Under the pieces are notes generated by a model that was not told the DNA's origin, did not search any database, and worked only from the letters and a program-made list of their open reading frames with translations. Source: Bdellovibrionales bacterium (GTDB taxonomy: Bacteria > Bdellovibrionota > Bdellovibrionia > Bdellovibrionales > UBA1609). From it: a DNA stretch of 64,000 bases. Location of the stretch: positions 21,171-85,170 of the forward strand of contig JAYQON010000002.1 of NCBI GenBank assembly GCA_038144835.1, given 5' to 3'. This document shows, piece after piece, positions 3,823-61,213 of this stretch. Position numbers and translations under genes: made by a program. Every line of letters starts with the position of its first letter. Within the stretch, counting starts at the first letter, position 1.

Positions 3823-4233
3823 TCACATCGACGGACGCAAGTCCTTAAGAACCTCTTTCACCCTAGAGTGTTTCATAATGATATCCGGGTTTGCAGAGAG
3901 GTGATGCGAATACTTTTGCCAGAATTCAGATTGTACTGCGCCTTGTGGTTTTTCGATGAGGTTTAGAACTTCGTTAGACACCCAATTTGCTTCTTTGCCG
4001 GATAATTTTGGAGTTTCATCAATTATGGTGTCTATGTTCACAATCATTTCGCTCATCAACCTTAGCCAAGAAAACGACGGATTATTTAAGGACGCATGCA
4101 GTAACTCGTAAGGAGAGACTTTGCGGCCGGATTCTCCTTCTAAAGCTTTTGCCTCCAGCATGAGCAGTTCACGGTGTAAATCTATTAGAGCCTGGGTGAG
4201 TTCGCGGAAAGCTTTATTTAGGTCATTGGTCAT
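3823..4233 (-). CDS. hypothetical cytoplasmic helical protein
   Basis: Clean 136-aa ORF with no signal peptide and no recognised motif. Confidence 0.5.
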   Translation of the reverse strand: MTNDLNKAFRELTQALIDLHRELLMLEAKALEGESGRKVSPYELLHASLNNPSFSWLRLMSEMIVNIDTIIDETPKLSGKEANWVSNEVLNLIEKPQGAVQSEFWQKYSHHLSANPDIIMKHSRVKEVLKDLRPSM

Positions 4234-4269
4234 AATTGGAGTCTACCACAATCTTTGACGGTTCGGAAA

Positions 4270-4884
4270 TCAGCCGAAGCGAGCTAACCAATATTGAGCA
4301 TGCTTGGCGAGAGAAGGGTCTGCAGTCTGTCGCAGGATATCACGGAGAAAGTTGATCGCTTCCCGATGAGACAACTTTTTTGTGGCGGCCTCCATCGCAT
4401 GAAAACGCACCACGATTTCATCGGAGTAAGATCGATTGTTAGCGGTTCGACTGATGGGAGAGCTAGCGATTTCTTTGAGCGATTTCAAGGCATCCCGGCC
4501 CTTTGCAAGTCCGAGCATATAGACACATAGAAATCGCTCGTCGCCATTGGCTTTTTTATCTAGAGCCAATTGTGTTAGATACTCAATTTCGTGTCGACGC
4601 AATTTCGCCGCTCTTGCCTTGAGCTTTTTTAATGTTTGTATTGGATTTGGATCCAATTGGCCGATGGCTTGAGCCTCTTGCTGTATCCAAAATCGCAGCG
4701 ATTCACCTGATGGGAAGCGGCTTTTTGGGCTGGTTCGATCCACCGTTTGAGAAGAAGTCCGAACCTGATTTGTTGGCGAGAGAGTTTCGAAGGTTGCTGT
4801 TGATTTTGTTATAGGCAGTTCTGATGTGAACATCCAGTAGATGATGAAAGCCAATCCTAAAAAAGCGACTGAACTACGATTCAT
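4270..4884 (-). CDS. membrane-anchored/exported alpha-helical repeat protein
   Basis: 204 aa. N-terminal hydrophobic anchor (VAFLGLAFIIYWMF), then a helical HEAT-like C-terminal half. Its start overlaps the upstream protease stop as ATGA (4881-4884). Confidence 0.5.
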   Translation of the reverse strand: MNRSSVAFLGLAFIIYWMFTSELPITKSTATFETLSPTNQVRTSSQTVDRTSPKSRFPSGESLRFWIQQEAQAIGQLDPNPIQTLKKLKARAAKLRRHEIEYLTQLALDKKANGDERFLCVYMLGLAKGRDALKSLKEIASSPISRTANNRSYSDEIVVRFHAMEAATKKLSHREAINFLRDILRQTADPSLAKHAQYWLARFG

Positions 4885-6212
4885 GGTTCCCTAAAGGCGT
4901 CATATATCGGAATTTGCACGGCATCTAAAGCGGGCAAACTTCCGAGTTCAGGAAGTAGCCTGCCATCGGCAAAGCGGATAACACCCGCTTGGTCAAGATG
5001 CAAAAGAGATCCTTGATAGAACAGAAAGGCTCTAGCATTTTTGGGCCAGAGTTGGGTGGGTTGTAAGCACTTGAGATATTCTACATCAAGTGCACAGTAG
5101 CTGGAATTGGAGAAAACGATAAAAGCTCCGCTGTCTCCTTCAGGGGAAACAGTTGCGAAACGAACGGCTCCAGGGAGCATTGAGGGATTGCTCCATTGCC
5201 CTGAGCCAAAAAGATAACTGTAAACTAAACCAGTTTTGCTTAAGGCCAGCATATAGCGACGTGTACCGATGTCAATTTCTTCCAAATCGGCCAATTCGGC
5301 GGGAGGTTGTATTTCTAATAATTTATAGTAGGAATACTCGTCTTCTGTAACTCTGACTTGCCCTTCCGGGCTGAGATGAAGCGCCCATGATTCTCCCTTG
5401 TTGTCCAACAGCGTGGCTCCAAAGGATGTTCTCTTAAGTGTGAAGGATGTTGGCAGCGGGCTTTGCCATTCGTTGAACTGTCGAGAAACTCCATTGAGCC
5501 GTATCAAACCCGTCGATGTTCGTACCAGCAGTTCATCGTGTGCCGCCATGGCGCTGTGATTGAATACAAAATTGGCTCGCGCCAGCAACATGAGCTTGGC
5601 CATACTTTTAAAAAGGGGATGGAAGTTTTGGCCAGCAAGATAAACTCGCGCATAATACTCCATTTCGACTCCATGGGAGCCCCCTTGTGAAACATCGGCA
5701 TCACAACCCGAGACCCAAGAGTCTTGATATGGTCCATGAGTGCACCGCGTATGATAAAAGCCTTCGGTGTGACGAGCTTCGTGGATGAGAGTGCCCACAC
5801 GTCCAAGTGTGGAAAGTTGAGCCCAACCATCTTGCAGTGTGAAGTGACCGCCGCGATTATAGGCCGTTGCGTAGGGCATATCATTGGCCCGTTCAATTCC
5901 GCGGGTTTGTTGTTTTAGCCAGTCGAAATAACTCTCTTTTGGAATGAATTCGCGAATAAATGTGTTGCTGGGAGGCTCGGCGAATTGGCCCTGTCGTATA
6001 ATTTCAAGATCGTTAAACAGCTTTTTTGCGTCTGAGTGGGGAGAGCACAGCTCAAGACCTCCAAAGGAACTTAAGTTAATATTGAGGTCATAAATATAGT
6101 TTTGTGCTTGCTGCGAATCTGTGCACTGAAATTCGTTGTCATCCACTGGTAATGAAGCCCACGCAAAGCTTGCTAAAAAAAGCTTCAGGGCTAAGCCAAC
6201 AATCCCATCCAT
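4881..6212 (-). CDS. secreted putative zinc metalloprotease (HExxH)
   Basis: 443 aa. Signal peptide MDGIVGLALKLFLASFAWA. HExxH motif in GTLIHEARHTEGFYH. No further family assignment is possible by eye. Confidence 0.6.
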   Translation of the reverse strand: MDGIVGLALKLFLASFAWASLPVDDNEFQCTDSQQAQNYIYDLNINLSSFGGLELCSPHSDAKKLFNDLEIIRQGQFAEPPSNTFIREFIPKESYFDWLKQQTRGIERANDMPYATAYNRGGHFTLQDGWAQLSTLGRVGTLIHEARHTEGFYHTRCTHGPYQDSWVSGCDADVSQGGSHGVEMEYYARVYLAGQNFHPLFKSMAKLMLLARANFVFNHSAMAAHDELLVRTSTGLIRLNGVSRQFNEWQSPLPTSFTLKRTSFGATLLDNKGESWALHLSPEGQVRVTEDEYSYYKLLEIQPPAELADLEEIDIGTRRYMLALSKTGLVYSYLFGSGQWSNPSMLPGAVRFATVSPEGDSGAFIVFSNSSYCALDVEYLKCLQPTQLWPKNARAFLFYQGSLLHLDQAGVIRFADGRLLPELGSLPALDAVQIPIYDAFREP

Positions 6213-6341
6213 GGATCCCCCTCATTGATTAGGGCTATCACCCTGCGACAAAAAGACAAGAAGAGATTTGTAAATAATTCCATAAGCAAAGATTTTGATG
6301 CTTGATGACAATTTGTTTATAGACGCTTACACTTCGCGCCC

Positions 6342-7358
6342 ATGACTGAGGCAAAATTGTTGGAGTATCTAAAGCGTAATCCGTTTGTGTTGGCTCCAAT
6401 GGCAGGAATTACAGATCGTCCCTTTCGCTCATTTATGCGTGAAATGGGGTGTGGCATCATGGTGACTGAGCTGGTGAGTGCCACGGGCCTTAAATTTTCT
6501 GCGCAAAAGACTCGTCGGTTGATGGAGTTTGGTGCAGACCAACACCCCGTCGGCATTCAACTCTTTGGTGACAACCTTGAGCATCTGTCCGAGGCCGCAC
6601 GAGCTGTTGAGCAGATGGGAGCCGACTTTGTAGATTTGAACTTTGGTTGCCCTGTGCCCAAAGTTGTCAACAAGGGAGCGGGCTCCGCATGTTTAAAAGA
6701 CCTTGTGCGTTTGCGAGATACCATTCGTGCCACCAAGAGTGCGGTGTCAATCCCCTTAACAATTAAGATCCGCACGGGTTGGGATCATGCCTCACGTAAT
6801 TCTCATGAAGTTATTCAGGTGGCTTATGATGAGGGAGTAACGTGGGTTGCTATCCATGGTCGAACTCGAGCCGCAGCTTACACCGGCCTGGCAGATTGGG
6901 ATTACATTCGCGAAGTCAAAGCCAGTTCTTCTTTGCCAGTGCTAGGAAATGGGGACATCACCTCGCCTGAACTGGCGATAAGGCGTCTGGCACAAAGCCG
7001 CTGCGATGGCGTTATGATTGGCAGAGGCTGCTTAAAGAATCCTCGCATTTTTATGCAGGCGAGAGCTATAGAAAACACAAGCTGCGACGAAGCCAAAGAT
7101 TTGGTGTTCATCTTGGATCGTTTATACGCACACCTTTGTCAGTTTTACGATGAACGTCTGACTTTAATTCAGATGCGAAAATTCGCATCTTGGTACTCGG
7201 CGGGATTTACAGGTGCGGCTACCTTTCGGAAAGATATTTTTCAGAGTCAGGGAACAGTAGAAACCCTCAGTCGTATCAAAAATTTTTTTAGTTCAGTGCG
7301 TGACATCAGACCAAATGATACAAGCCATGAACCATTTCTAATGGGTGGTCATGGCTGA
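6342..7358 (+). CDS. dus: tRNA-dihydrouridine synthase
   Basis: 338 aa. Dus family motifs LAPMAGITD, DLNFGCP, KIRTGWD, AIHGRT, NGDI, GVMIGRG. Confidence 0.9.
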   Translation: MTEAKLLEYLKRNPFVLAPMAGITDRPFRSFMREMGCGIMVTELVSATGLKFSAQKTRRLMEFGADQHPVGIQLFGDNLEHLSEAARAVEQMGADFVDLNFGCPVPKVVNKGAGSACLKDLVRLRDTIRATKSAVSIPLTIKIRTGWDHASRNSHEVIQVAYDEGVTWVAIHGRTRAAAYTGLADWDYIREVKASSSLPVLGNGDITSPELAIRRLAQSRCDGVMIGRGCLKNPRIFMQARAIENTSCDEAKDLVFILDRLYAHLCQFYDERLTLIQMRKFASWYSAGFTGAATFRKDIFQSQGTVETLSRIKNFFSSVRDIRPNDTSHEPFLMGGHG

Positions 7359-31771: not shown

Positions 31772-33085
31772 TTAGGCAGGTCCTTGCGGGAGTTTATCTT
31801 TGCTCACTTCGGTGATCTGAGCTGACTCAACCAGCTTACTGACAACTTTTTCTTCGGTAATCTGAAACATTAAGCGTGAGCGGCGTTCTGGCTTAGAATA
31901 AAACTCTTCGATTTTGGACAGTTCTATACCTGTTTGTTGAGCATACTCATGGATTTTGCTTTCCACTTCAGATTTGGTGGCACGCAAGTTGAGTTTCTCA
32001 GCCAATGCATCTAGCAAGAATGTCGATTTGACCATGAATGTAGCTGATTCCGTAAAGTCAGCATCCCATTTTTTCTTGTACTCTTCGAAGTCCTTATCGG
32101 TGAGCCCTTGTTGCTGCAGCCGACCTTTGAAGTCCTCTATTAGAGATTCTTTTTGTTGATCAACGAGGGCTTGGGGAGCTTCAACGGGGTTAGCTTCAAC
32201 TAGGGCCTTTACCAGACGATTGCGTAAATCATCTTCAATACGTTTCTTGTCGCCTTCCTCGATGTCAGCAACAATTCGTGTTTTTAATTCTTCCAGAGTA
32301 TTGAACTGGCCGAGTTTCTTGGCAAGGTTATCATCAATTTCAGGTAAAACCTTCTTCTTTATACCCGTAAGCTTAACTTCGAAAGTCACCGGCGCCCCAC
32401 TCAAGGAAGCTTCATGGTATCCTTCGGGAAACCGCAAGTTGAGAGTTCGACTCTCGCCAATTTTCATGCCTACGACGCCCTCTTCAAAGCCTTCAATAAA
32501 CTGCTTTGAGCCCAACTCTAATTCGTGCCCCAGGGCGGAACCGTTGGGTAGGGCTTCACCCCCCACGAGACCGGTAAAATCAACGACGGCAACATCACCT
32601 TCACTGACCGCACGGTCTTCAAAAACTGTCACAGTGTCGGCGTGACTCTTTCTTATGTTCTCCAAAATAGCAGTCACACGGTCTTCGCTGATTTCAAGTT
32701 TTTCTTTCTGGACGGGTAAACCTTCGAATTTCTTAATCTGAACTTCGGGGCGGATTTCGAATTCAGCTGAAAAAGAAAAGTCTTTTTCTTCGAGTAGGGG
32801 TTCGAAAGACATTTTTGGGTAGCCTACCGGATCAAGATTGTGCTCTTCCAATGCATTTTGATAACCTTCATTGATAAGGTCGTTCAAAACATCGCTTTTG
32901 ACTTGGTCAGCGTAAATGGATTTAATGGTTTTTAGTGGCGCTTTGCCCGGTCGAAAGCCCTTTATGTTGGCCTTTTTTTGGATTGCCTTATAAACTTTGT
33001 CGAATGTTTCCTGGACTTTTTCTACGGGGATTTCCACGTTGAGTTTGCGAGCTAAGCCCTCACCGCGATCAACGGTCGATTTCAT
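31772..33085 (-). CDS. tig: trigger factor
   Basis: Ribosome-binding GFRPGKAP motif, central FKBP region (GDVAVVDF...FIEGFEEG), and a C-terminal helical arm. Start taken at MKSTVDRG. Confidence 0.9.
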   Translation of the reverse strand: MKSTVDRGEGLARKLNVEIPVEKVQETFDKVYKAIQKKANIKGFRPGKAPLKTIKSIYADQVKSDVLNDLINEGYQNALEEHNLDPVGYPKMSFEPLLEEKDFSFSAEFEIRPEVQIKKFEGLPVQKEKLEISEDRVTAILENIRKSHADTVTVFEDRAVSEGDVAVVDFTGLVGGEALPNGSALGHELELGSKQFIEGFEEGVVGMKIGESRTLNLRFPEGYHEASLSGAPVTFEVKLTGIKKKVLPEIDDNLAKKLGQFNTLEELKTRIVADIEEGDKKRIEDDLRNRLVKALVEANPVEAPQALVDQQKESLIEDFKGRLQQQGLTDKDFEEYKKKWDADFTESATFMVKSTFLLDALAEKLNLRATKSEVESKIHEYAQQTGIELSKIEEFYSKPERRSRLMFQITEEKVVSKLVESAQITEVSKDKLPQGPA

Positions 33086-33181
33086 GACACGTGCTCCTTT
33101 GAACAAACGAGACCTTTACCCTCTATGCCGCGGTTTGCCAACTGCCTATTCGAGCTTCTGGCGCGGCGCGCGAGGTTTAAC

Positions 33182-34033
33182 ATGATTCACTTCATAACCG
33201 GAAAAGGCGGCGTCGGCAAATCTACTGTAGCGGCCGCGTTAGCTTGGAGCCTGGCGGCGCGAGGGCGTAGGACATTATTGGTTGAGCTTGGAGAGCGGAG
33301 CTATTTTAGGCATGTCTTTCATGCGGACGTTAGCGCGCACCCAGTGGTGGTGAATTCTCATCTCACGGTGACCTGTTGGGAGGGTGAAGCTTGTTTAAGG
33401 GAATATCTGCGGCACCTCATTAAGATTGAAAAGGTTGTGAAACTTTTCTTCGATAATCGAGTAATGAGAGCTCTTGTCCAAGCGGCGCCCGCACTCAAGG
33501 AGTTAGCTTTACTGGGCAAGATTACCAGCGGACCACGAAAAATCGGGCCGGCTCTCCCTTATGATGAAATCGTGGTTGATGCCTATTCTACAGGACATTT
33601 TAGAGCTTTATGGCGCGCTCCAATGGGCTTAGCAGAAGCTATCCCTTTCGGCCCTATGGGGGAACAGTCGCGCTCGATTGTTCAAGTTATGAAAAACCCA
33701 GAGCAGACTTGTTATTACGTTGTCATGTTACCAGAAGAGTTACCCGTGAGCGAAGGACTTGAACTGGCACAGGACATTCAGAACGAGCTGGAACAGAGTC
33801 CGCGAATCGTAATGAACCGGTGGCTCGAGTCACCCCTGGATTTGCGCAAGTTGAGTGCTTTTCGAGGACAGGAGTTTGCCGACTATCTTATTCTTCTTTT
33901 GGAGAGGCAGGCGAACGCCGATCGGAAGGTTAAAGAAAAGGGGTTCTTGGTCCACAAGGTACTTCCGTGGCTCTTTAACGACAGTGTGCCCATTAAGATC
34001 CGTGAATTGGCTCTTAAGATGGAGGGAGTATGA
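33182..34033 (+). CDS. Get3/ArsA-like ATPase, partner 1 (P-loop intact, switch I absent)
   Basis: MIHFITGKGGVGKST deviant Walker A, and DAYSTGHFRAL (switch II/TGH-like). No DPAH motif. Start moved to ATG 33182. Confidence 0.75.
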   Translation: MIHFITGKGGVGKSTVAAALAWSLAARGRRTLLVELGERSYFRHVFHADVSAHPVVVNSHLTVTCWEGEACLREYLRHLIKIEKVVKLFFDNRVMRALVQAAPALKELALLGKITSGPRKIGPALPYDEIVVDAYSTGHFRALWRAPMGLAEAIPFGPMGEQSRSIVQVMKNPEQTCYYVVMLPEELPVSEGLELAQDIQNELEQSPRIVMNRWLESPLDLRKLSAFRGQEFADYLILLLERQANADRKVKEKGFLVHKVLPWLFNDSVPIKIRELALKMEGV

Positions 34034-35112
34034 GAGAATTGCTCCGCAGCCACAGAGTGCTTATTTGTGCGGGCACGGGCGGAGTTGGAAAAACTTCCCT
34101 TTCTGCGAGCCTTGGCGTTCTGGGAGCTCAATCAGGATTGAAGACTCTTGTCTTAACAATCGATCCGGCTCATCGCTTGGCACAAGCGCTGGGCATAGAG
34201 AAAAAACCAGGAGAAGACGTAAAGGTTGAAGCTGTACCAGGTCTAAGCGCTTCAATGATTGATCCACGCAGAGAGTTCGATGAATTTGTTCTGGGCGCCG
34301 TTGATAAGGGCATAGCAAAGGGATTATTCAATAATCGTCTTTATCAGCAATTAGCTACCAACTTGAGTGGCAGTCAAGAGTTCACTTCGCTTGTTCGTCT
34401 GATGACTGCGGTGCGGTCGCAGCATTACGATTTAGTCATTTTAGATACCCCGCCAACTCAGAATGCGGTGGATTTTTTGAAAGCGCCCGAGCGCATTTAT
34501 GCGCTTTTTCAAGACACTGTGATCGGGTGGTTTTCTAATCCTACCGTAGATGAGAGTTGGTTTAAGCGCACACTACACCGCGGAACGCGTCTAGTGACAG
34601 CAGCTCTCGAGGCGGCTACGGGAAGTACTTTTATTGCTGAGTTAAAAGATTTTTTTACTCATATTGCCTACCTCAAAACTCGGATTGCTGAAATCAGTAG
34701 GGACGTTGGCGAACTCCTGCACTCGGATAAGGCGGGCTTTATATTAGTTACCGGTTTTGACGAGACCAAACTAAAGGAAGCCTTAGAGTTTCAACAAGAT
34801 CTCGCTAACGAGCACTTGAACCTACGCGGGGTGATTGTGAACCGCTGGTTTCCCGAATGGGCCGAGGGCGTTGAGTCTTGGTCGGGCGACTGGGACAAAA
34901 ATCCTGATTTTGAGAAATTGAGAGAATTTTATGTGAGGTTCTCCGAATTTTTTCGTAGCCGTCAGCAAGGCTTTGAGCGGTTTGAAGAGCAGCTCAGTAA
35001 AATTTCGGTTCCGGTGGTCAAGCTGCCCGATTTCAAAAATAGCGTTCAGGGCCTGACTGATTTGCAGCATATGGCTCGAACTCTTGAGGAAAAATGGAGG
35101 TCTACTTTATGA
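34030..35112 (+). CDS. Get3/ArsA-like ATPase, partner 2 (signature Lys lost, DPAH intact)
   Basis: GTGGVGKTS, TIDPAHRLAQALG, VILDTPPTQNAVDFL. ATGA overlap with partner 1. Confidence 0.8.
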   Translation: MRELLRSHRVLICAGTGGVGKTSLSASLGVLGAQSGLKTLVLTIDPAHRLAQALGIEKKPGEDVKVEAVPGLSASMIDPRREFDEFVLGAVDKGIAKGLFNNRLYQQLATNLSGSQEFTSLVRLMTAVRSQHYDLVILDTPPTQNAVDFLKAPERIYALFQDTVIGWFSNPTVDESWFKRTLHRGTRLVTAALEAATGSTFIAELKDFFTHIAYLKTRIAEISRDVGELLHSDKAGFILVTGFDETKLKEALEFQQDLANEHLNLRGVIVNRWFPEWAEGVESWSGDWDKNPDFEKLREFYVRFSEFFRSRQQGFERFEEQLSKISVPVVKLPDFKNSVQGLTDLQHMARTLEEKWRSTL

Positions 35113-36161
35113 GGATGCTCTTAGCGTTGGCTTTATCGACGGGAGTATGCGCCAGTTGCTCCCACTTCTCCTCAAAAAAAAATGTGGTTCGCGAGTCAGA
35201 CGTAGTCAGCGCTCCGTTTGAGCAAGGAATGAAAGCGCTCGAGACCGATGATTATGCACAAGCAGCCCGTATTTTTGATGACATATTAGTTAGCAACCCT
35301 GGATCTGAGTTGGAGTTAGTCACAATTTACAATTCCGGCGCAGCCTATGAAGGCCTTGGAGATTGCCCTAAGGCTATTGATCGCTATCGACAGGCTGTAC
35401 GCGCCTCTGCAAAGAAATTTCAGCGCATAGAAGCGCAAGCCTTATTTCGTCTTAGCTTAATGTATGAATGTGTGGGGCAAGACAAAAAGGCTATAGCAGC
35501 GCTGTTGGATTCCCGTAGGCGCGGTGAACATCTTGGAGATGAAGTGGTTCAGGCTGAAATTCCGGCACGTCTGGCGGCGGCATATTCACGTTTAGGAAAT
35601 CGCGACAAAGCTCTAGAGTATTTCGCGCAGGCCGGAGTTGGTCTAAAGGCAATTGTTTCTCGGGGCACGGGTGCTAATCGGTTAAAAGTAGACATTCTGG
35701 CGCGAACCCTTTTCTTTATGGGAAAGTTGAGTCCGTCCCAGCGTCGCGCAGAGACTAGCCCCGATTCTTTTTTGCAGTCGATTTCCATGCAGCAGCCACA
35801 TCTTTTGCAGGCGGCGGAGTTAAATCACCCACTTTTTTCCGGCAAGGCCGCAGACGATTTAGAGCTTGCTTATGAAAATTTATGGAAGTTTAACATCAAT
35901 AATCTGAGTCAAAGACGCGAGTTTTATATGCGTGGATTACAAGTGGCTGAGGAACTGCGTAAATTGAAGATGCCTGAAAGTAATGCTTTAGTGGAAAGAA
36001 TTTTCGCGCATGTTGACCGGAGTCAGGCACGATTGCGAGCGGAGCTGGCTAGAATGGGTGAGACAACCCGGTTGACCCCCGAAGCCGAAAAGCGCGAGGG
36101 CCTCAAACGTGAAGGGCGTTTGGTCACGCCGGTTAAGCCCAAAAAGCAGAAAGTCAGGTGA
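35109..36161 (+). CDS. exported TPR-repeat protein (possible lipoprotein)
   Basis: MRMLLALALSTGVCASCS signal with Cys residues, then TPR-like repeats (YNSGAAYEGLGDCPKAIDRYRQA, AAAYSRLGNRDKALEYF). ATGA overlap with the upstream gene. Confidence 0.6.
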   Translation: MRMLLALALSTGVCASCSHFSSKKNVVRESDVVSAPFEQGMKALETDDYAQAARIFDDILVSNPGSELELVTIYNSGAAYEGLGDCPKAIDRYRQAVRASAKKFQRIEAQALFRLSLMYECVGQDKKAIAALLDSRRRGEHLGDEVVQAEIPARLAAAYSRLGNRDKALEYFAQAGVGLKAIVSRGTGANRLKVDILARTLFFMGKLSPSQRRAETSPDSFLQSISMQQPHLLQAAELNHPLFSGKAADDLELAYENLWKFNINNLSQRREFYMRGLQVAEELRKLKMPESNALVERIFAHVDRSQARLRAELARMGETTRLTPEAEKREGLKREGRLVTPVKPKKQKVR

Positions 36162-36880
36162 TGTCAGAATTTTTAGGGGGCCTTAGTTTTTGGTGGCGGG
36201 GGTGGGTGTTTTTGTTGAAAAGTCCCCGCTTTTTAACTTTGGCGATTTTGCCTCTTATCCTGTCGATGCTATTTATAGTGCCCTTTTTTTGGTTTATCTT
36301 TTCCCAATTGCCTCAATGGTCAACAGTATTGGTGTCGGTACTTTTGGGGTGGACCACTGAGTTTTGGCAGGATGTGGTTTATTATCCTTTGTTTCTGAGT
36401 GCGCTACTGGCGGTTATCATCGGTTCTTTTTTTCTTGTATATGTTTTGCATTCAATTTTGGCGATACCGTTTTACTCCCGACTGGCTGAGCAAACCGTCA
36501 CTCTGCGAGGAAAGAAATCCCAGGGTTTGTCATTTTGGCGCATGTTGCGAGCGGGTTTGATTAAGACCGCCGTTTTGCTGCCGGTGGGATTCATCTTTTT
36601 TCTAATTTCATTTGTTCCTGGTCTCAATTTGATCGCTTTATTCGGATCAATGCTAATTTTGGCATTTGATATTATTGACTATTCATTTGAGGCGGTGGGT
36701 TTCGGTTTTCGCGAACGCGTAGGTTATTTGCTGCGACATCGGGGGCAATGGTTGGGTATGGCGGCCGGCCTGGCGTTGACATTACCTGTGCCGGCTTTTA
36801 CTCTGCTCATAATTCCTGGCGCAGTCACGGGCGCGGCCCTCATACTCAAAATAGAACATGAGCTTAACCATGAATTTTGA
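36158..36880 (+). CDS. CysZ/EI24-family integral membrane protein
   Basis: 240 aa. The N-terminal pattern GLSFWWRGWVFLLKSPRFLTLAILPLILSMLF...FSQL...AIPFYSRLAEQ parallels the E. coli CysZ N-terminus. Four or more TM segments. Confidence 0.65.
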   Translation: MMSEFLGGLSFWWRGWVFLLKSPRFLTLAILPLILSMLFIVPFFWFIFSQLPQWSTVLVSVLLGWTTEFWQDVVYYPLFLSALLAVIIGSFFLVYVLHSILAIPFYSRLAEQTVTLRGKKSQGLSFWRMLRAGLIKTAVLLPVGFIFFLISFVPGLNLIALFGSMLILAFDIIDYSFEAVGFGFRERVGYLLRHRGQWLGMAAGLALTLPVPAFTLLIIPGAVTGAALILKIEHELNHEF

Positions 36881-38111
36881 ACGCTTACATAGGCGAATTA
36901 TTGAAAACAGCGATGGGGTTCTAGCTTGGTTCAAAAGCCGTAGCCGGGATCTGCATTTTCCATTTTATTCTAGCTTTGATTTGCGTGATGCTGGCTTCAA
37001 GTTGGGCCCCGTTGACGCCAATATCTTTCCTGCTGGATTTAATAATATTTGTTTGGTCGATCGAGAAGAAGCAGCAGAAGTTGCGAGAGTTTTTCTTGAT
37101 GAACATTACTCCATATCCACAAAAAAAATTTTACTGCTCACAGAGGAGCACACGCAAAATCCTTATTACTGGGATAATGTTGCAGTTTTACGCTCAATTT
37201 TGGAGAGAGCGGGGAGAGAAGTTTGCCTTGCTGTGCCCAGACCTATGACACAACCTTTGGAGGTGGTTAATGCCTCTGGACAAACCTTAAAAGTATTTCC
37301 GGCTACGCGCGAAGGTGGGAGTGTAAATATAGGTGGTTTTGTTCCAGATCTTATAATTTCTAACAACGACTTCAGTCAGGATTACGAGGAGTGGGCGCGG
37401 GACCTAGATACGCCTATGAATCCGCCGCGAGAGCTGGGATGGTATCGGCGCCGAAAAGATCGTTTCTTCAAAGTTTACAATCAGTTTGCCGCTGAGTTTT
37501 GTGAAATATTACGGCTAGACCCTTGGATATTGCAGGTTGAAACAGAAGTATTCGCCTCTTTCGAGGTAGACAGCGAGCAGAGCCGAGATCTTCTGGCACA
37601 AAAAGCACAAGCCGTTCACGATCGAATCAAAGCCAAATATCTAGCTCATGGAATTGAGCGCGAGCCCTTTCTTTTTGTAAAAAATAACGCGGGAACGTAT
37701 GGTTTGGGAGTCATACAAGTTAAAAATCCAGATGAGATCCGCGCTTGGAATTACAAATCTCGCAAAAAAATGAAAGCTGCTAAGGGTGGTCGTGAAGTGA
37801 CGGAAGTCATCATTCAAGAGGGTATCCCGACGACAACTCTGGGCGAAGGTGGCAAGACTGCGGAACCTGTGATCTATATGATCGGCTGCCAACTGGCAGG
37901 TGGATTTTTGCGTGCTCATGGTGAAAAAAGTGTAGAGGAGTCCCTTAATTCCCCGGGTGCAGTTTTTCAGCGACTGTGCATAGCTGATTTGAGCGTCAAA
38001 CTTGAGGGTTGTCCTATGGAAAATGCCTACGGTTGGGTGGCACGGTTGGCATTCCTGTCCGTGGCGCAAGAAGCACGCGAGCTGGGCGTTGAGTTTAAAA
38101 ATTATAAATAG
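36858..38111 (+). CDS. gshA: probable glutamate--cysteine ligase of the small GshA (Acidithiobacillus-type) family
   Basis: 417 aa. The N-terminal FPFYSSFDLRDAGFKLGPVDANIFPAGFNN block matches my memory of this family. Not verified by search. The start could instead be 36870. Confidence 0.55.
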   Translation: MSLTMNFERLHRRIIENSDGVLAWFKSRSRDLHFPFYSSFDLRDAGFKLGPVDANIFPAGFNNICLVDREEAAEVARVFLDEHYSISTKKILLLTEEHTQNPYYWDNVAVLRSILERAGREVCLAVPRPMTQPLEVVNASGQTLKVFPATREGGSVNIGGFVPDLIISNNDFSQDYEEWARDLDTPMNPPRELGWYRRRKDRFFKVYNQFAAEFCEILRLDPWILQVETEVFASFEVDSEQSRDLLAQKAQAVHDRIKAKYLAHGIEREPFLFVKNNAGTYGLGVIQVKNPDEIRAWNYKSRKKMKAAKGGREVTEVIIQEGIPTTTLGEGGKTAEPVIYMIGCQLAGGFLRAHGEKSVEESLNSPGAVFQRLCIADLSVKLEGCPMENAYGWVARLAFLSVAQEARELGVEFKNYK

Positions 38112-38219: not shown

Positions 38220-38891
38220 ATGTCGTTTCGTTTCGGCGCTGCATTTTTCTTAGCATTTGCCTATCTGGGTTACTTTGCTTCTATGAACGCATGGAACGGA
38301 AATATCTACGTTTATGTGGGAGAAACTCGCGCTCCTGCGGCAACACGCTCGATTAAAGATTACTCAATGTTAAGTCGCAAGGCTCTCAGTGAACGCTTTC
38401 ATAAGCAGCTTGTTGCGGACGCTGCTCTTTTTCGAGATCAAGGTTATTTGGGAGTACAATTAGGGCATCCCATCATTCCTAAGGCAGAAGGTGGTTGGGA
38501 TTTCGCGTGCAACACACCCGCGAGACAAGGGCTTTTTAATCGGATCCGCCTCACCTTCATGGGGACAGGTGTCGCTGAAAGCGGTCAACCGCCCAAGATG
38601 ACGGTAGAAGGGTCTTGCCGTTCTGGAGGCAGTCTTGATCAATTGGCCACTTTTTGGGTTCCAATAAGTGAAATTTTACGTTCCCAAGCTCGTGAGCAAG
38701 ATGTGTATTCTGAAGATCTAATTATTCGTTTGCGCGATATTCCTGATGAATGGCCTGAGAGTTGGGCTTTAAAAGAGATAAAACTCTTTAAGCAAAATGA
38801 TGAAGAAGATTATATCGAGGTCGGCGCCTCGCTACTAATGGAGGCGCGTGCTAAAATGCTCGTGTTTGAATGGAAAAACAAATCGCTTTAA
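38220..38891 (+). CDS. hypothetical membrane-anchored/exported protein
   Basis: 223 aa with an N-terminal hydrophobic segment (AAFFLAFAYLGYFA). No motif recognised. Confidence 0.45.
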   Translation: MSFRFGAAFFLAFAYLGYFASMNAWNGNIYVYVGETRAPAATRSIKDYSMLSRKALSERFHKQLVADAALFRDQGYLGVQLGHPIIPKAEGGWDFACNTPARQGLFNRIRLTFMGTGVAESGQPPKMTVEGSCRSGGSLDQLATFWVPISEILRSQAREQDVYSEDLIIRLRDIPDEWPESWALKEIKLFKQNDEEDYIEVGASLLMEARAKMLVFEWKNKSL

Positions 38892-40402: not shown

Positions 40403-40671
40403 TTTTTATTTCCCTTGCGTTTTCTAATTGTTTTTACGTATTGATTTCTTTTGTGCGTGATTCTTGATCAAATTGAACCCTATTTACGCGCAGCAAAATC
40501 AACACGTGGCCGGACTCGACTTGAGGCTGGTTCTAGCACAGCGTATAAGGCGAATAAAGGCTTTTCCCAAAACTCCAGTTTAAAGGAATTTCTCCCGAGA
40601 AGTTCTTGTCAGAACTGAAGAAAACTCCATATTTGGAGATAGGCTTTAACCGCGGGAGTGCAACGGTGAAT

Positions 40672-41283
40672 ATGAATCTTGTCCCAATAGTTGTCGAGCA
40701 AACGGCTCGAGGCGAACGTAGTTACGACATTTATTCTCGCTTGCTCAAAGAGCGCATTATTCTTTTGGGAACCCCTGTCACCGACGATGTTGCCAACGTG
40801 ATCATTGCGCAAATGTTTTTCCTCGAGATGGAGAATCCAGATCGAGACATTCATCTTTATATAAACTCACCCGGAGGCAGTGTTTCAGCGGGGCTGGCAA
40901 TTTATGATATCATGCAATTTGTACGCTGCGATGTAAGTACGTATTGCATCGGTATGGCTGCCAGTATGGGCTCTTTGCTTTTGACTGCGGGAGCTAAAGG
41001 CAAACGCTACATACTTCCGCACTCAAAAACAATGATTCACCAACCTCTGATTGCGGGAGGAGGTCTCTCGGGTCAAGTTAGCGATATTGAAATTCATGCG
41101 CGTGAGATGATTAATACTAAGCGTAAATTGACCGAGATTTACGTCAAACATACCGGACATGATTTTGATTTTCTGACCCAAGCTATGGATCGCGACAGAT
41201 ACATGAGTGCTGACGAATCGAAGGAATTCGGATTGGTTGATCACGTGGTTGAAAAGCGCAAATCCAACAAGGAAAACACATGA
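40672..41283 (+). CDS. clpP: ATP-dependent Clp protease proteolytic subunit
   Basis: [27 protein letters not shown], catalytic GMAASMGS, and HQP. Start moved to ATG 40672. Confidence 0.95.
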
Positions 41284-42590
41284 GTAAAGAAAAGAATGGA
41301 AGCTACGGAACTCTTTGCTGCAGCTTTTGTGGCAAAAGCCAAAAAGAAGTTAAAAAGCTGATTGCAGGTCCGGGCGTTTATATTTGCGATGAGTGTATTG
41401 AGCTTTGCAATGACATTATTGCCGAGGAGCGCGAGAGAGAAGAAAGCACAAAGGTACAGCTCTCCGTTCCAAAGCCTGTTGATATCAAGGCCTTTTTGGA
41501 CGACTACGTGATTGGCCAAGAAAAGGCCAAAAAGACCCTCTCAGTCGCTGTGCACAATCATTACAAGCGCATTAATTTTATGAAGGGTGGTCGCTCTAAG
41601 AAAGAGGATGTTGAGATTTCAAAAAGCAACATTTTGCTGATCGGGCCTACGGGTTCGGGCAAAACTCTTTTGGCGCAAACCATTGCCAAAATACTGAACG
41701 TGCCTTTCGCGATGGCCGACGCCACGGCTTTGACGGAAGCAGGGTATGTGGGTGAAGATGTCGAAAACGTCGTACTCAATCTTTTGCAGGCCGCCGACTA
41801 TGATGTTGAGAAGTGTCAAAAAGGCGTCATATACATTGACGAAATAGACAAGATCTCGCGCAAATCAGAGAACCCATCGATCACTCGTGATGTGAGTGGA
41901 GAAGGGGTGCAGCAGGCCCTGCTTAAAATTCTTGAAGGCACAATCGCCAATTTGCCACCTAAAGGCGGGCGCAAGCACCCGCAACAAGAATTTATCCAGA
42001 TCGATACCACCAATATTCTGTTCATTGTGGGTGGGGCTTTCGTCGGGCTTGATAAAGTTATCGACGCCCGGATTTCCAGCCGATCAATGGGCATTGCGGC
42101 AGATATTAAAACTAAAGAAGACAAACTTTCGGGCAAAGAAAACGTACTTCAACGTGTGGAACCCGACGATTTGGTTCGTTTTGGCTTGATTCCAGAGTTC
42201 ATAGGCCGTCTGCCCTCGGTCGCGGTCCTGGATCCGTTGGATGAGGCCGCTTTGATTGATATTTTAGTGAAACCCAAAAACGCCCTCACCAAGCAGTACA
42301 CAAAGCTTTTCTCCTACGAAAATGTCGACCTCAAGTTTGAGGATAACGCCTTGCGGGCCATTGCTCAGGAGGCCATCAAACGAAATACGGGCGCCCGTGG
42401 TCTGCGTGGTGTGATTGAGAGTGCAATGCTGGACATTATGTTTGAAATTCCATCCAAACCGAACGTGAAGGAATGCATAATCACCGAAGACGTGATCACC
42501 AAGCATGAAAAGCCACAGCTGATCCTTGGTCAGAAAGAAGCCAAGAGTAAAGAGAGTGGGGCTACCGGTGACTCGGCTGAGTCTGCCTAA
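41280..42590 (+). CDS. clpX: ATP-dependent Clp protease ATP-binding subunit ClpX
   Basis: Zinc-binding CSFCGK...CDEC, Walker A GPTGSGKT, pore loop GYVGEDV, and an IGF-loop region (SMGIAAD). Confidence 0.95.
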
Positions 42591-49860: not shown

Positions 49861-49936
49861 AGGGAATTAGCTCAGTTGGTAGAGCGCCACCCTTACAAGG
49901 TGGATGTCGTCGGTTCGAGCCCGGCATTCCCTACCA
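49861..49936 (+). tRNA. tRNA-Val (anticodon UAC), CCA encoded
   Basis: Folded by hand as a 76-nt cloverleaf: acceptor AGGGAAT/ATTCCCT, D arm GCTC-AGTTGGTA-GAGC, anticodon arm CCACC-CTTACAA-GGTGG, T arm GTCGG-TTCGAGC-CCGGC, discriminator A, then CCA. Confidence 0.9.
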
Positions 49937-61110: not shown

Positions 61111-61213
61111 AAAAAGCGACCGGGCACTCCGTATCACACAGAACCCCTACTACCGTTGCTTCCTTCCGGACCTGGCGGGATTCGTAAGAATCGCTGTTGT
61201 ACGGGACCCGGCC
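61111..61213 (-). ncRNA. ffs: signal recognition particle RNA (small/4.5S type)
   Basis: The reverse strand reads GGCCGGGUCCCGUA...CCGCCAGGUCCGGAAGGAAGCAACGG...UACGGAGUGCCCGGUCGCUUUUU. This contains the domain IV GGAA tetraloop motif, 5'/3' ends that pair, and a U-tail. It lies 22 nt upstream of dnaX, a conserved position. Confidence 0.8.

What the first reader, a model, noticed from the sequence alone, without database searches (positions are those of the whole stretch)
33182..38111. Overlap-coupled five-gene operon: a Get3/ArsA-like ATPase pair in which each partner has lost different motifs, plus a TPR exported protein, a CysZ/EI24-like membrane protein and a GshA-type ligase
Seen in sequence: five same-strand ORFs have start/stop overlaps at every junction (ATGA at 34030-34033 and 35109-35112; overlaps at 36158-36161 and 36858-36880). 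Partner 1 has a canonical deviant Walker A (GKGGVGKST) and a switch-II-like DAYSTGH, but nothing like DPAH. Partner 2 has GTGGVGKTS (signature Lys replaced by Thr), an intact DPAH, and DTPPTQN (the TGH is lost). Established knowledge: in ArsA/Get3 ATPases the signature Lys, DPAH (switch I) and DTAPTGH (switch II) build a composite site across the dimer. Tandem Get3-like pairs exist in actinobacteria (M. tuberculosis Rv3679/Rv3680, as I recall), with stress phenotypes and no defined client. Eukaryotic Get3 also acts as a redox-switched holdase. CysZ is a sulfate permease family, and GshA makes gamma-glutamylcysteine. Inference: the pair is an obligate heterodimer with a single competent catalytic site. 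It appears wired to envelope and thiol/sulfur homeostasis rather than arsenic export, since no arsB/C/D/R genes are nearby. I know of no description of this gene combination.
Basis: partly seen in the sequence, partly recalled or inferred. Interest (0 to 1): 0.65.

Follow-up and report, generated by a model that had tools for sequence, protein, structure and literature searches.

The report
BagAB-type ATPase pair in Bdellovibrionota operon
The two "half-broken" ATPase genes are distant relatives of the known Mycobacterium tuberculosis BagA/BagB (Rv3679/Rv3680) pair, and their lopsided motif pattern is shared by the whole family; what looks new is that predatory-type bacteria (Bdellovibrionota) keep this pair in one tight operon with a TPR lipoprotein and a glutathione-precursor enzyme.

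Summary
There are five same-strand ORFs, every junction overlaps, and the quoted motifs are present.

Partner 1 matches BagA/Rv3679 best and partner 2 matches BagB/Rv3680 best. This holds for the NCBIfam models and for PDB 6BS3 chains A and B.

The complementary motif pattern was not lost in this genome. It is a family-wide trait:
- BagA keeps the signature Lys in 75/75 sequences and lacks DPA.
- BagB lacks the signature Lys in 0/141 unbiased representatives and keeps D-P-[AS] and DTPP.
- bagA sits directly upstream of bagB in 69/76 loci from other phyla.
- Natural BagA-BagB fusion proteins exist.

Gene context:
- The order bagA-bagB-TPR lipoprotein-[EI24]-gshA is conserved across about 23 Bdellovibrionota-type loci. 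EI24 is absent in 7 of them and gshA in 1.
- No GshA, EI24 or P6 homologue lies within 10 kb of bagAB outside that phylum. A TPR lipoprotein gene does follow bagB in five Myxococcota loci.

A single fully equipped ATP site, on BagB with BagA supplying the Lys finger, is plausible but inferred. The link to thiol metabolism rests only on synteny within one lineage.

Verdict: a new member of a known ATPase family in an undescribed operon context. Interest is moderate.

The parts
33182..34033 (+). bagA-like gene (283 aa). Deviant Walker A with the signature Lys: GKGGVGKST, nt 33200-33226, with K8 as signature Lys and K13 as P-loop Lys. No DPAH; it has LLVELGERS instead (nt 33275-33301) with the conserved Glu E35. 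Switch II is DAYSTGH (nt 33578-33598).
   Evidence: NCBIfam BagA NF053622 is the best hit at 112 bits, against 19.5 for BagB. PDB 6bs3_A (Rv3679) E 9e-22. Motif statistics. A GAGG Shine-Dalgarno lies 6 nt before the ATG at 33182.
34030..35112 (+). bagB-like gene (360 aa). P-loop without the signature Lys: GTGGVGKTS, nt 34072-34098, with T16 in place of Lys. Switch I is DPAH (nt 34162-34173). Switch II is DTPPTQN (nt 34444-34464).
   Evidence: NCBIfam BagB NF053621 is the best hit at 194.6 bits, against 55.7 for BagA. PDB 6bs3_B (Rv3680) E 3e-39. Motif statistics. ATGA overlap with bagA and a GGAGGGAG Shine-Dalgarno.
35109..36161 (+). P3, an exported all-alpha TPR lipoprotein (350 aa). The lipobox Cys is C17 (nt 35157-35159). 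C86 and C121 form a likely structural disulfide. A conserved C-terminal motif LTPEAEKREGLKReGRL is followed by a Lys-rich tail.
   Evidence: Pfam TPR_12 and TPR_2. Invariant C17, C86 and C121 in 34 homologues. AF2 pLDDT 89 with 15 helices. Foldseek gives only generic TPR and BamD matches, TM <= 0.48. C86/C121 are replaced together by W/A in a sister subclade. ATGA overlap with bagB.
36158..36880 (+). P4, an EI24/CysZ-superfamily integral membrane protein (240 aa; alternative start ATG 36161). It is an optional member of the operon.
   Evidence: Pfam EI24 84.7 bits (cut-off 32). NCBIfam CysZ PRK04949 73 bits, below the 140 cut-off. Several hydrophobic segments. Present in 16 and absent in 7 orthologous operons.
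36858..38111 (+). gshA, a glutamate-cysteine ligase of the PF08886/TIGR02049 type (417 aa; alternative start ATG 36870).
   Evidence: Pfam GshA 429.5 bits covering model positions 2-401 of 402. TIGR02049 337.1 bits, above the 293.9 cut-off. It follows P3 or EI24 in every Bdellovibrionota-type locus with sequence available except L097.
38220..38891 (+). P6, a conserved 223-aa protein of unknown family with a hydrophobic N-terminus and two conserved Cys. It is a probable sixth, loosely attached gene, 108 nt after gshA and convergent with pepA.
   Evidence: No hit in Pfam, NCBIfam or PADLOC. Orthologues follow gshA in L002-L004, L008-L010, L087, L089, L092-L094, L103 and L104, and are inverted in L098 and L099. 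The AF2 single-sequence model is unusable.
33107..33181 (.). 75-nt divergent intergenic region between tig (minus strand, 31772-33106) and bagA. This is the presumed promoter region of the operon.
   Evidence: ORF map and sequence. The consensus scan found no sigma-70-like site there, so the promoter is inferred, not shown.

Best explanation
The locus encodes a Bdellovibrionota version of the BagA/BagB system. This is a pair of Get3/ArsA-fold (SIMIBI class) ATPases that work as an A:B heterodimer with two unequal nucleotide sites.

The BagB site has all the standard elements: its own P-loop Lys (K21), the switch I Asp (D45 in DPAH), the switch II Asp (D139), and a Lys finger supplied across the interface by BagA (K8). 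The BagA site receives no Lys finger, because BagB has Thr16 at that position, and it lacks the DPA motif. It most likely binds nucleotide and acts as a slow or regulatory site. This resembles the degenerate site of heterodimeric ABC transporters.

In this lineage the pair is translationally coupled to an exported TPR lipoprotein (P3). Most operons also carry an EI24/CysZ-like membrane protein, and nearly all carry gshA (gamma-glutamylcysteine synthesis). The block is probably transcribed from the tig-bagA intergenic region.

Most likely role: an ATP-driven clamp at the cytoplasmic face of the inner membrane that supports envelope maintenance and stress tolerance, co-expressed with low-molecular-weight thiol synthesis.

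Shown here: gene identities, motif asymmetry, family-wide conservation, synteny and natural fusions.
Inferred: the heterodimer in this organism, which site hydrolyses ATP, co-transcription, and any functional tie to P3, EI24 or GshA.
For: Identity of the pair:
- Reciprocal best matches to the BagA and BagB models and to 6BS3 chains A and B.
- Same gene order as in Mtb. bagA is directly upstream of bagB in 69/76 loci from Actinomycetota, Myxococcota, Binatia, Thermodesulfobacteriota and Pseudomonadota.

Heterodimer:
- 9 of the 150 best cluster representatives are single polypeptides of 650-850 aa. Their N-terminal half has the BagA motifs and their C-terminal half the BagB motifs.
- The Mtb proteins were co-crystallised (PDB 6BS3, 6BS4, 6BS5).

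Asymmetry:
- BagA has the signature Lys in 75/75 sequences and the switch II Asp in 75/75.
- BagB has the signature Lys in 0/85 loci and 0/141 unbiased representatives, D-P-[AS] in 145/145, and DTPP in 147/150.
- In SIMIBI NTPases each monomer inserts a Lys or Arg into the partner's site, and an Asp/Glu at the C-cap of the WB+1 strand holds the catalytic water (PMC9599734).

Operon:
- Overlapping junctions with Shine-Dalgarno sites and no internal terminator signal.
- Equally tight spacing in orthologous loci L002-L006.
- bagA-bagB-P3-[EI24]-gshA is conserved down to 40% BagB and 28% P3 identity, while the flanking genes vary.
- TPR lipoprotein genes lie directly downstream of bagB in Myxococcota loci L037, L050, L060, L068 and L085.

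Phenotype link: Mtb and M. smegmatis bagAB are tied to glycerol/methylglyoxal and nitric oxide tolerance (PMC10597346). Both are stresses buffered by low-molecular-weight thiols.
Against: - NCBIfam equivalog cut-offs are not reached: BagA 112 vs 400, BagB 195 vs 521. These are distant family members, not equivalogs.
- BagA keeps a conserved Glu (E35, 66/75) that could serve as the catalytic carboxylate, so the BagA site may still hydrolyse ATP.
- As I recall, Whitaker et al. 2020 found that intact ATP-binding motifs are needed in both Mtb proteins. That paper is not held in the library, so I could not check it.
- No GshA (PF08886 type), EI24 or P6 lies within 10 kb of bagAB in 76 loci outside Bdellovibrionota.
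- EI24 is absent from 7 orthologous operons and gshA from L097.
- The whole ftsEX-to-lon region is collinear in this phylum, so part of the synteny reflects relatedness.
- P3 is periplasmic and BagAB is cytoplasmic, and no transmembrane link between them has been demonstrated.
- No transcript data are available.
Confidence: 0.6

Rival explanations
1. Operon by packing only. bagAB is a self-contained two-gene system, as in Mtb. P3, EI24, gshA and P6 are functionally unrelated housekeeping genes that sit next to it in a compact, collinear Bdellovibrionota chromosome region and may be co-transcribed without sharing a pathway.
For: - Outside Bdellovibrionota, bagAB never has GshA, EI24 or P6 nearby.
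- EI24 is dispensable (7 loci), gshA is absent in L097, and P6 is inverted in L098 and L099.
- Neighbouring genes from ftsE to lon are collinear in the same loci.
- 4-nt overlaps also occur between other genes of this genome, such as ftsE/ftsX.
Against: - The core order persists to 28% P3 and 40% BagB identity while the flanks change: extra genes between ctpB and tig, and a 3-kb insertion before pepA in L103.
- Spacing stays tight whether or not EI24 is present.
- A TPR lipoprotein follows bagB in a second phylum, Myxococcota.
Confidence: 0.3
2. A split ArsA: the two genes are the halves of an arsenite/antimonite pump ATPase that energises a metalloid exporter.
For: Pfam ArsA_ATPase is the top Pfam family for both proteins. 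JGI and NCBI records name the homologues "ArsA family ATPase".
Against: - The ArsA equivalog TIGR04291 scores 50.8 and 62.4 bits against a cut-off of 650.
- There are no arsB/acr3, arsC, arsD or arsR genes in +/-10 kb.
- No conserved cysteines are available for a metalloid site: the BagA cysteines are not conserved and BagB has only C13.
- Both halves of ArsA keep GKGGVGKT and DTAPTGH, unlike this pair.
Confidence: 0.03
3. A bacterial Get3 proper: a tail-anchored-protein targeting factor and/or redox-switched holdase chaperone, placed among proteostasis genes (tig, clpP, clpX, lon).
For: - The proteins have the Get3/ArsA fold family.
- The locus interrupts the tig...clpP-clpX-lon neighbourhood in all Bdellovibrionota-type loci.
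- Bacterial Get3 homologues of unknown role are widespread (PMC6593721).
Against: - The TIGR00345 subfamily cut-off of 135 is not reached (59.6 and 108.9 bits). The NosAFP model scores 29.9 vs 325.
- There is no CxxC zinc/redox motif: 0/75 BagA and 1/85 BagB.
- The pair is an asymmetric heterodimer rather than a homodimer.
- No Get1/2-like receptor is known in bacteria.
- I did not test for a hydrophobic client groove here.
Confidence: 0.07

Closest known systems
Mycobacterium tuberculosis BagA/BagB (Rv3679/Rv3680; PDB 6BS3, 6BS4, 6BS5; NCBIfam NF053622 and NF053621)
   Same: - Two adjacent same-strand genes with A upstream of B.
- Best reciprocal sequence matches.
- Identical motif logic: BagA is GKGG..GK[ST] with no DPA and D-A-x-x-T-G-[HR]; BagB is G[A/S/T]GGVGKT with DPA[KRHQ]RLA and DTPP.
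- The Mtb sequences read GKGGTGKST / DAPPTGR for Rv3679 and GAGGVGKTT / DPAKRLAQ / DTPPSRN for Rv3680.
   Different: - Only distant similarity, far below the equivalog cut-offs.
- BagA here is shorter (283 vs 340 aa).
- The operon is extended by a TPR lipoprotein, EI24, gshA and P6. The actinobacterial neighbourhood is instead nth, crp, MBL-fold hydrolase, RidA-like, bagAB and a PASTA-PBP.
- The host is a Gram-negative Bdellovibrionales MAG.
ArsA (E. coli R773 arsenite pump ATPase; PDB 1F48, 9NBL)
   Same: Same fold and the same pseudo-dimer principle of two homologous nucleotide-binding halves facing each other. Natural BagA-BagB fusions mimic the single-chain ArsA layout.
   Different: Both ArsA halves carry complete motifs and a Cys-based metalloid site, and ArsA sits in ars operons. 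None of this applies here.
Get3/TRC40 tail-anchor targeting ATPase
   Same: SIMIBI deviant Walker A ATPase with switch I DPAH and a switch II of the DTAPTGH type. BagB keeps DPAH-like and DTPP motifs.
   Different: Get3 is a symmetric homodimer held by a CxxC-Zn site, with Get1/2/4 partners. Here the dimer is asymmetric, has no CxxC, and scores below the family cut-offs.
Heterodimeric ABC exporters and SRP/SR GTPases with one degenerate nucleotide site
   Same: This is a working analogy only: two face-to-face sites, of which one has the full catalytic set and the other is degenerate or regulatory (PMC9599734).
   Different: The folds or subfamilies are unrelated. This is not a membership claim.
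GshA of the Acidithiobacillus ferrooxidans type (TIGR02049 / PF08886)
   Same: ORF5 passes the equivalog cut-off over its full length.
   Different: No linkage of this gene to a Get3-like ATPase pair is reported in the literature I searched.

Membership tests
BagA/BagB heterodimeric Get3-like ATPases | Two adjacent same-strand genes, with the BagA-type gene upstream of the BagB-type gene | tested here: met
   33182-34033 and 34030-35112 overlap by 4 nt. The same order is seen in 69/76 loci of other phyla.
BagA/BagB heterodimeric Get3-like ATPases | Each partner matches its own subfamily model or structure best | tested here: met
   Partner 1: BagA 112 bits vs BagB 19.5, and 6bs3_A is the top hit. 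Partner 2: BagB 194.6 vs BagA 55.7, and 6bs3_B is the top hit.
BagA/BagB heterodimeric Get3-like ATPases | Score at or above the NCBIfam equivalog cut-offs (NF053622: 400; NF053621: 521) | tested here: not met
   112.2 and 194.6 bits. These models are tuned to mycobacterial sequences, so this excludes equivalog status but not family membership.
BagA/BagB heterodimeric Get3-like ATPases | Complementary motif pattern: BagA has the signature Lys and no DPA; BagB has no signature Lys and has DPA and DTPP | tested here: met
   The Mtb pattern is visible in the alignments.
BagA/BagB heterodimeric Get3-like ATPases | Physical A:B complex with ATPase activity | not testable with these tools
   Indirect support only: natural A-B fusion proteins and the co-crystal entries 6BS3-6BS5.
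ArsA arsenical pump ATPase | Equivalog score (TIGR04291 cut-off 650) | tested here: not met
   50.8 and 62.4 bits
ArsA arsenical pump ATPase | Metalloid-binding cysteines and ars operon partners (arsB/acr3, arsC, arsD, arsR) | tested here: not met
   No conserved Cys apart from BagB C13 next to the P-loop. No ars families among the neighbours.
Get3/TRC40 | TIGR00345 subfamily cut-off (135 bits) | tested here: not met
   59.6 bits for partner 1 and 108.9 bits for partner 2
Get3/TRC40 | CxxC zinc-binding dimerisation and redox motif | tested here: not met
   CxxC found in 0/75 BagA and 1/85 BagB sequences, and none in the window proteins
Get3/TRC40 | Hydrophobic client groove / TRC40 insert | not tested
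   No complex model could be built with the available tools.
GshA (glutamate-cysteine ligase, PF08886/TIGR02049) | Full-length match above the curated cut-offs | tested here: met
   Pfam 429.5 bits (cut-off 25) over model positions 2-401 of 402; TIGR02049 337.1 bits (cut-off 293.9)
CysZ sulfate transporter | EI24/CysZ Pfam domain | tested here: met
   PF07264 84.7 bits (cut-off 32), covering model positions 2-199 of 199
CysZ sulfate transporter | NCBIfam CysZ equivalog (PRK04949 cut-off 140) | tested here: not met
   73.2 bits. This shows superfamily membership only; sulfate transport cannot be assumed.
TPR lipoprotein | TPR repeats plus a signal peptide with a lipobox Cys | tested here: met
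   TPR_12 39.0 bits (cut-off 30.1) and TPR_2 32.0 bits (cut-off 27). Lipobox Cys17 is invariant in 34 homologues. AF2 gives an all-alpha solenoid with pLDDT 89.
Anti-phage defence systems (PADLOC) | Match to a defence-system protein model | tested here: not met
   Only short P-loop matches for partner 1 and none for the other five proteins

The most novel reading that the evidence does not exclude
BagAB plus the downstream TPR lipoprotein is an ancient three-part, envelope-spanning module shared by Myxococcota and Bdellovibrionota. In this reading the asymmetric Get3-like ATPase acts at the inner membrane, using the EI24-like protein as a docking partner where it is present. It delivers or extracts a hydrophobic or thiol-reactive client for a periplasmic TPR lipoprotein. 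Bdellovibrionota then added gshA, so that gamma-glutamylcysteine or glutathione supply is co-regulated with the module. If so, the still-unknown cellular role of mycobacterial BagAB (tolerance to methylglyoxal and NO) would be a thiol-linked envelope-protection function.
Probability: 0.12. Interest if true: 0.7.

Novelty: new member of a known kind. Interest (0 to 1): 0.4.

Why it matters
BagAB is a structurally solved ATPase with no known client. In mycobacteria it affects tolerance to glycerol/methylglyoxal, nitric oxide, citrate and antibiotics (PMC10597346, PMC12216072).

Three results here give concrete, testable leads about what it does:
- The pair, with its one-sided Lys finger, occurs across at least five phyla.
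- It exists as natural fusions.
- In two Gram-negative phyla it is coupled to a TPR lipoprotein, and in one of them also to gamma-glutamylcysteine synthesis.

These results also warn annotators that "ArsA family ATPase" is a misleading name for these genes. The asymmetry itself is not new, and the thiol link is only an association.

Tried and rejected
- Primary BagAB papers: Hu et al. 2019 (PMC6597400) and Whitaker et al. 2020 (PMC8404711) are not held in the library. Statements about their content are from memory or from citing papers.
- P6 homologues: the word-index search found only P6 itself.
- P6 structure: the single-sequence AF2 model had pLDDT 39.6 and was discarded.
- P3 fold search against the PDB gave only generic TPR and BamD similarity (TM <= 0.48), so it yielded no functional clue.
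- Redox-active Cys pair in P3 tied to gshA: rejected. C86/C121 are replaced together by W/A in a sister subclade that still has gshA, so this looks like a structural disulfide.
- Defence-system reading: rejected.
- RNA elements: the Rfam scan found nothing in or next to the operon.
- Promoter/terminator scan: uninformative.
- Neighbour clustering in high-GC loci was swamped by spurious ORFs. Only the GGT and ParA neighbours of Thermoleophilia could be confirmed, and they are lineage-specific.
- Ascertainment bias: the genome-contig scan selected loci using BagB P-loop and DPA patterns. I repeated the BagB motif counts on an unbiased HMMER search.
- A BagA+BagB complex could not be modelled because the structure tool takes single chains only.

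Full report
**1. What is in the sequence**

One search lists five + strand ORFs at the stated coordinates:
- 33182-34033 (283 aa)
- 34030-35112 (360 aa)
- 35109-36161 (350 aa)
- 36158-36880 (240 aa, GTG start)
- 36858-38111 (417 aa)

One search confirms the junctions: ATGA at 34030, ATGA at 35109, GTGA at 36158, and a 23-nt overlap at 36858-36880. Shine-Dalgarno-like sequences lie before the first three starts. The exact starts of ORF4 and ORF5 are uncertain. ATG 36161 and ATG 36870 are alternatives, and my longer translations are not in the public protein collection. Either choice keeps the genes overlapping.

The consensus scan found no excess of promoter-like or terminator-like sites inside the block. 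The quoted motifs are all present. Tight junctions are common in this genome (for example ftsE/ftsX), so they fit an operon without being unusual.

**2. Identity of the five proteins**

Pfam:
- ArsA_ATPase for ORF1 (69.8 bits) and ORF2 (116.8 bits)
- TPR families for ORF3
- EI24 for ORF4 (84.7 bits)
- GshA for ORF5 (429.5 bits, full length)

NCBIfam is more specific:
- ORF1 matches "ATPase BagA" best (112 bits; BagB 19.5).
- ORF2 matches "ATPase BagB" best (194.6 bits; BagA 55.7).
- Both scores are far below the narrow equivalog cut-offs of 400 and 521.
- ORF5 passes the TIGR02049 glutamate-cysteine ligase cut-off (337 vs 294).
- ORF4 stays below the CysZ equivalog cut-off (73 vs 140). It belongs to the EI24/CysZ superfamily, but it is not a demonstrated sulfate permease.

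Against solved structures, ORF1 hits 6bs3_A (Rv3679, 9e-22) and ORF2 hits 6bs3_B (Rv3680, 3e-39). ArsA and Get3 follow well behind. The pair here is a distant member of that family, now called BagAB (PMC10597346). Named homologues at about 73% identity place the source in a Bdellovibrionales MAG.

**3. The motif asymmetry defines the family**

The HMMER alignments already show the pattern in Mtb:
- Rv3679: GKGGTGKST, no DPA, DAPPTGR
- Rv3680: GAGGVGKTT, DPAKRLAQ, DTPPSRN

I fetched 80 loci from one-genome-per-species contigs and extracted both proteins.

BagA:
- signature Lys in 75/75
- switch II Asp in 75/75, with TGH mostly kept
- no DPA, but a conserved Glu (66/75) in the strand "LLVE"

BagB:
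- signature Lys in 0/85
- TIDPA in 85/85
- DTPP in 85/85

Those loci were selected with BagB P-loop and DPA patterns. I therefore repeated the BagB counts on an unbiased HMMER search of 1.84 billion cluster representatives (6595 hits at E <= 1e-3, 783 at E <= 1e-30). Among the best 150:
- signature Lys in 0/141
- D-P-[A/S] in 145/145
- DTPP in 147/150

The His of the window's "DPAH" is not conserved; that position is mostly R, K or Q.

bagA lies directly upstream of bagB in 69/76 loci outside Bdellovibrionota. These loci come from Actinomycetota, Myxococcota, Binatia, Thermodesulfobacteriota and Pseudomonadota. Nine of the 150 representatives are 650-850 aa fusion proteins with BagA motifs in the N-terminal half and BagB motifs in the C-terminal half. 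This is Rosetta-stone support for an A:B pseudo-dimer laid out like single-chain ArsA.

**4. How the ATPase most likely works**

In SIMIBI NTPases the two sites face each other. Each monomer inserts a Lys or Arg finger into the partner's site, and an Asp/Glu at the C-cap of the strand after Walker A positions the catalytic water (PMC9599734). Applied here:
- The nucleotide on BagB has BagB K21, D45 (DPAH) and D139, plus the finger K8 from BagA. This is a complete site.
- The nucleotide on BagA gets no finger, because BagB has T16 at that position, and BagA lacks the DPA motif.

Both main "losses" therefore fall on the same site.

Two caveats apply. First, BagA's conserved E35 sits two residues before the position of the Get3 Asp and could act as the catalytic carboxylate. 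Second, as I recall, Whitaker et al. 2020 found that both ATP-binding motifs are required in Mtb; that paper is not held in the library. The step from motif pattern to catalytic competence is inference.

There is no CxxC (0/75 BagA, 1/85 BagB) and no conserved Cys set for a metalloid site. Neither the Get3 redox switch nor ArsA metalloid activation applies.

**5. Gene context**

In Bdellovibrionota-type loci found through BagB (L002-L010) and through P3 in metagenomes (L087-L104), the order is:

tig(-) | bagA bagB P3 [EI24] gshA [P6] | pepA(-) clpP clpX lon

It holds down to 40% BagB and 28% P3 identity, with overlaps or gaps of a few nucleotides.
- EI24 is present in 16 loci and absent in 7.
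- gshA is missing only in L097.
- P6 is inverted in L098 and L099.
- The flanks vary: extra genes between ctpB and tig, and a 3-kb insertion before pepA in L103.

The variable flanks argue for some selection on the core. However, the whole ftsEX-to-lon stretch is broadly collinear in this phylum, so relatedness explains part of the synteny.

In the 76 loci outside Bdellovibrionota, single-sequence searches found no PF08886-type GshA or P6 within 10 kb. Profile searches also found no GshA or P6, and gave one EI24-family hit in L038 about 3.5 kb upstream on the opposite strand.

The P3 profile does find TPR proteins directly downstream of bagB on the same strand in Myxococcota loci L037, L050, L060, L068 and L085 (31-40 bits in four, 21.7 in L085). 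All have lipobox-like N-termini, and Pfam TPR matches confirmed the four I tested. The bagA-bagB-TPR lipoprotein triad is thus shared by two related phyla. The gshA and EI24 additions are specific to Bdellovibrionota.

**6. The accessory proteins**

P3 is a lipoprotein.
- Its lipobox Cys17 is invariant in 34 homologues.
- AF2 gives an all-alpha solenoid of 15 helices with pLDDT 89.
- It resembles BamD and designed TPRs only generically.
- Its invariant C86/C121 pair sits at the same end of an antiparallel helix pair. In a sister subclade that still carries gshA the pair is replaced together by W/A. This points to a structural disulfide rather than a redox sensor.

P3 homologues number only 127 in the 5.8-billion-protein index, and every one that carries an informative organism name is Bdellovibrionales.

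P6 (38220-38891) has no family match. It has a hydrophobic N-terminus and two conserved Cys. Its structure could not be predicted.

**7. Comparison with known systems, and novelty**

The ATPase pair is a new, distant member of the BagAB family. It is not ArsA and not Get3 proper (see the membership table).

The Get3-family review I could read does not mention Mycobacterium or heterodimers (PMC6593721). I found no paper linking Bdellovibrio, ArsA/Get3-like ATPases and gshA.

Mycobacterial bagAB mutants show phenotypes with glycerol/methylglyoxal, NO, citrate, rifampicin and streptomycin. Methylglyoxal and NO are stresses buffered by low-molecular-weight thiols, so the gshA linkage in Bdellovibrionota is suggestive. 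It remains guilt by association within one lineage.

**8. Verdict**

The asymmetry is real but already embodied in a solved structure and in curated models. The operon context (TPR lipoprotein in two phyla, gshA in one) appears undescribed and gives testable leads to BagAB function. Interest is 0.4, and the novelty class is a new member of a known kind.

Noticed in passing
window 38220-38891 (+): P6 is a 223-aa ORF with no Pfam, NCBIfam or PADLOC match. It has a hydrophobic N-terminus and two conserved cysteines. It follows gshA in most Bdellovibrionota-type loci and is inverted in L098 and L099. It may be a sixth gene of the operon.
   Followed up: partly
window 31772-33106 (-) and 40606-42590 (+): tig and clpP-clpX (with lon next in related loci) form the classic proteostasis cluster. 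In all Bdellovibrionota-type loci examined they are separated by bagA-bagB-P3-EI24-gshA-P6-pepA.
   Followed up: partly
P0295, P0322, P0331, P0342, P0344, P0345, P0351, P0381, P0387: These are natural single-chain BagA-BagB fusion proteins of 650-850 aa. The N-terminal half carries GKGG...DAPATGH and the C-terminal half carries G[SAPGN]GG...TIDPARR...DTPP.
   Followed up: partly
L018, L019, L023, L025, L026, L031, L036, L046-L048, L057, L059, L061-L063, L065, L067, L069, L070, L074-L076, L081, L082 (about 4000-7000, minus strand): A gamma-glutamyltranspeptidase gene lies 3-5 kb upstream of bagAB on the opposite strand in 24 loci, mostly titled Thermoleophilia/Solirubrobacterales, with a ParA/Soj-like gene in between. 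This is a second, lineage-specific neighbour from gamma-glutamyl/thiol metabolism and may be coincidental.
   Followed up: partly
window 35358-35372 and 35463-35477 (P3 C86 and C121): This cysteine pair is invariant in the window's subclade and is replaced together by Trp/Ala in a sister subclade. That is covariation typical of a structural disulfide in an exported protein.
   Followed up: yes
window 33275-33301 (BagA LLVELGERS): A conserved Glu (E35; 66/75 across phyla) sits at the end of the strand where Get3 has its catalytic Asp. It could act as a substitute catalytic carboxylate in the supposedly degenerate site.
   Followed up: partly
P0104 and P0234 (4870-bp contig titled Calothrix sp. 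SM1_5_4); L022 (titled Klebsiella pneumoniae MAG); L011 (titled Ideonella sp.): These contigs carry bagAB genes although their organism titles look implausible. The Calothrix-titled contig carries a Bdellovibrionales-type BagB and P3 (71% and 58% identity to the window proteins). These are probably mis-binned metagenome contigs.
   Followed up: no
L072 5342-14221 (Rhodococcus sp. SMB37): The actinobacterial bagAB neighbourhood is nth, crp, an MBL-fold hydrolase, a RidA/YjgF-like protein, bagA, bagB and a PASTA-domain class A PBP. It shares no gene with the Bdellovibrionota operon.
   Followed up: partly
window 49861-49933 (+) and 61115-61213 (-): A tRNA gene and the bacterial small SRP RNA are the only Rfam matches in the window.
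   Followed up: no
window 34066-34068 (BagB C13): A cysteine two residues before the BagB P-loop glycine is conserved in 82/85 loci and 101/140 unbiased representatives. Its significance is unknown.
   Followed up: no
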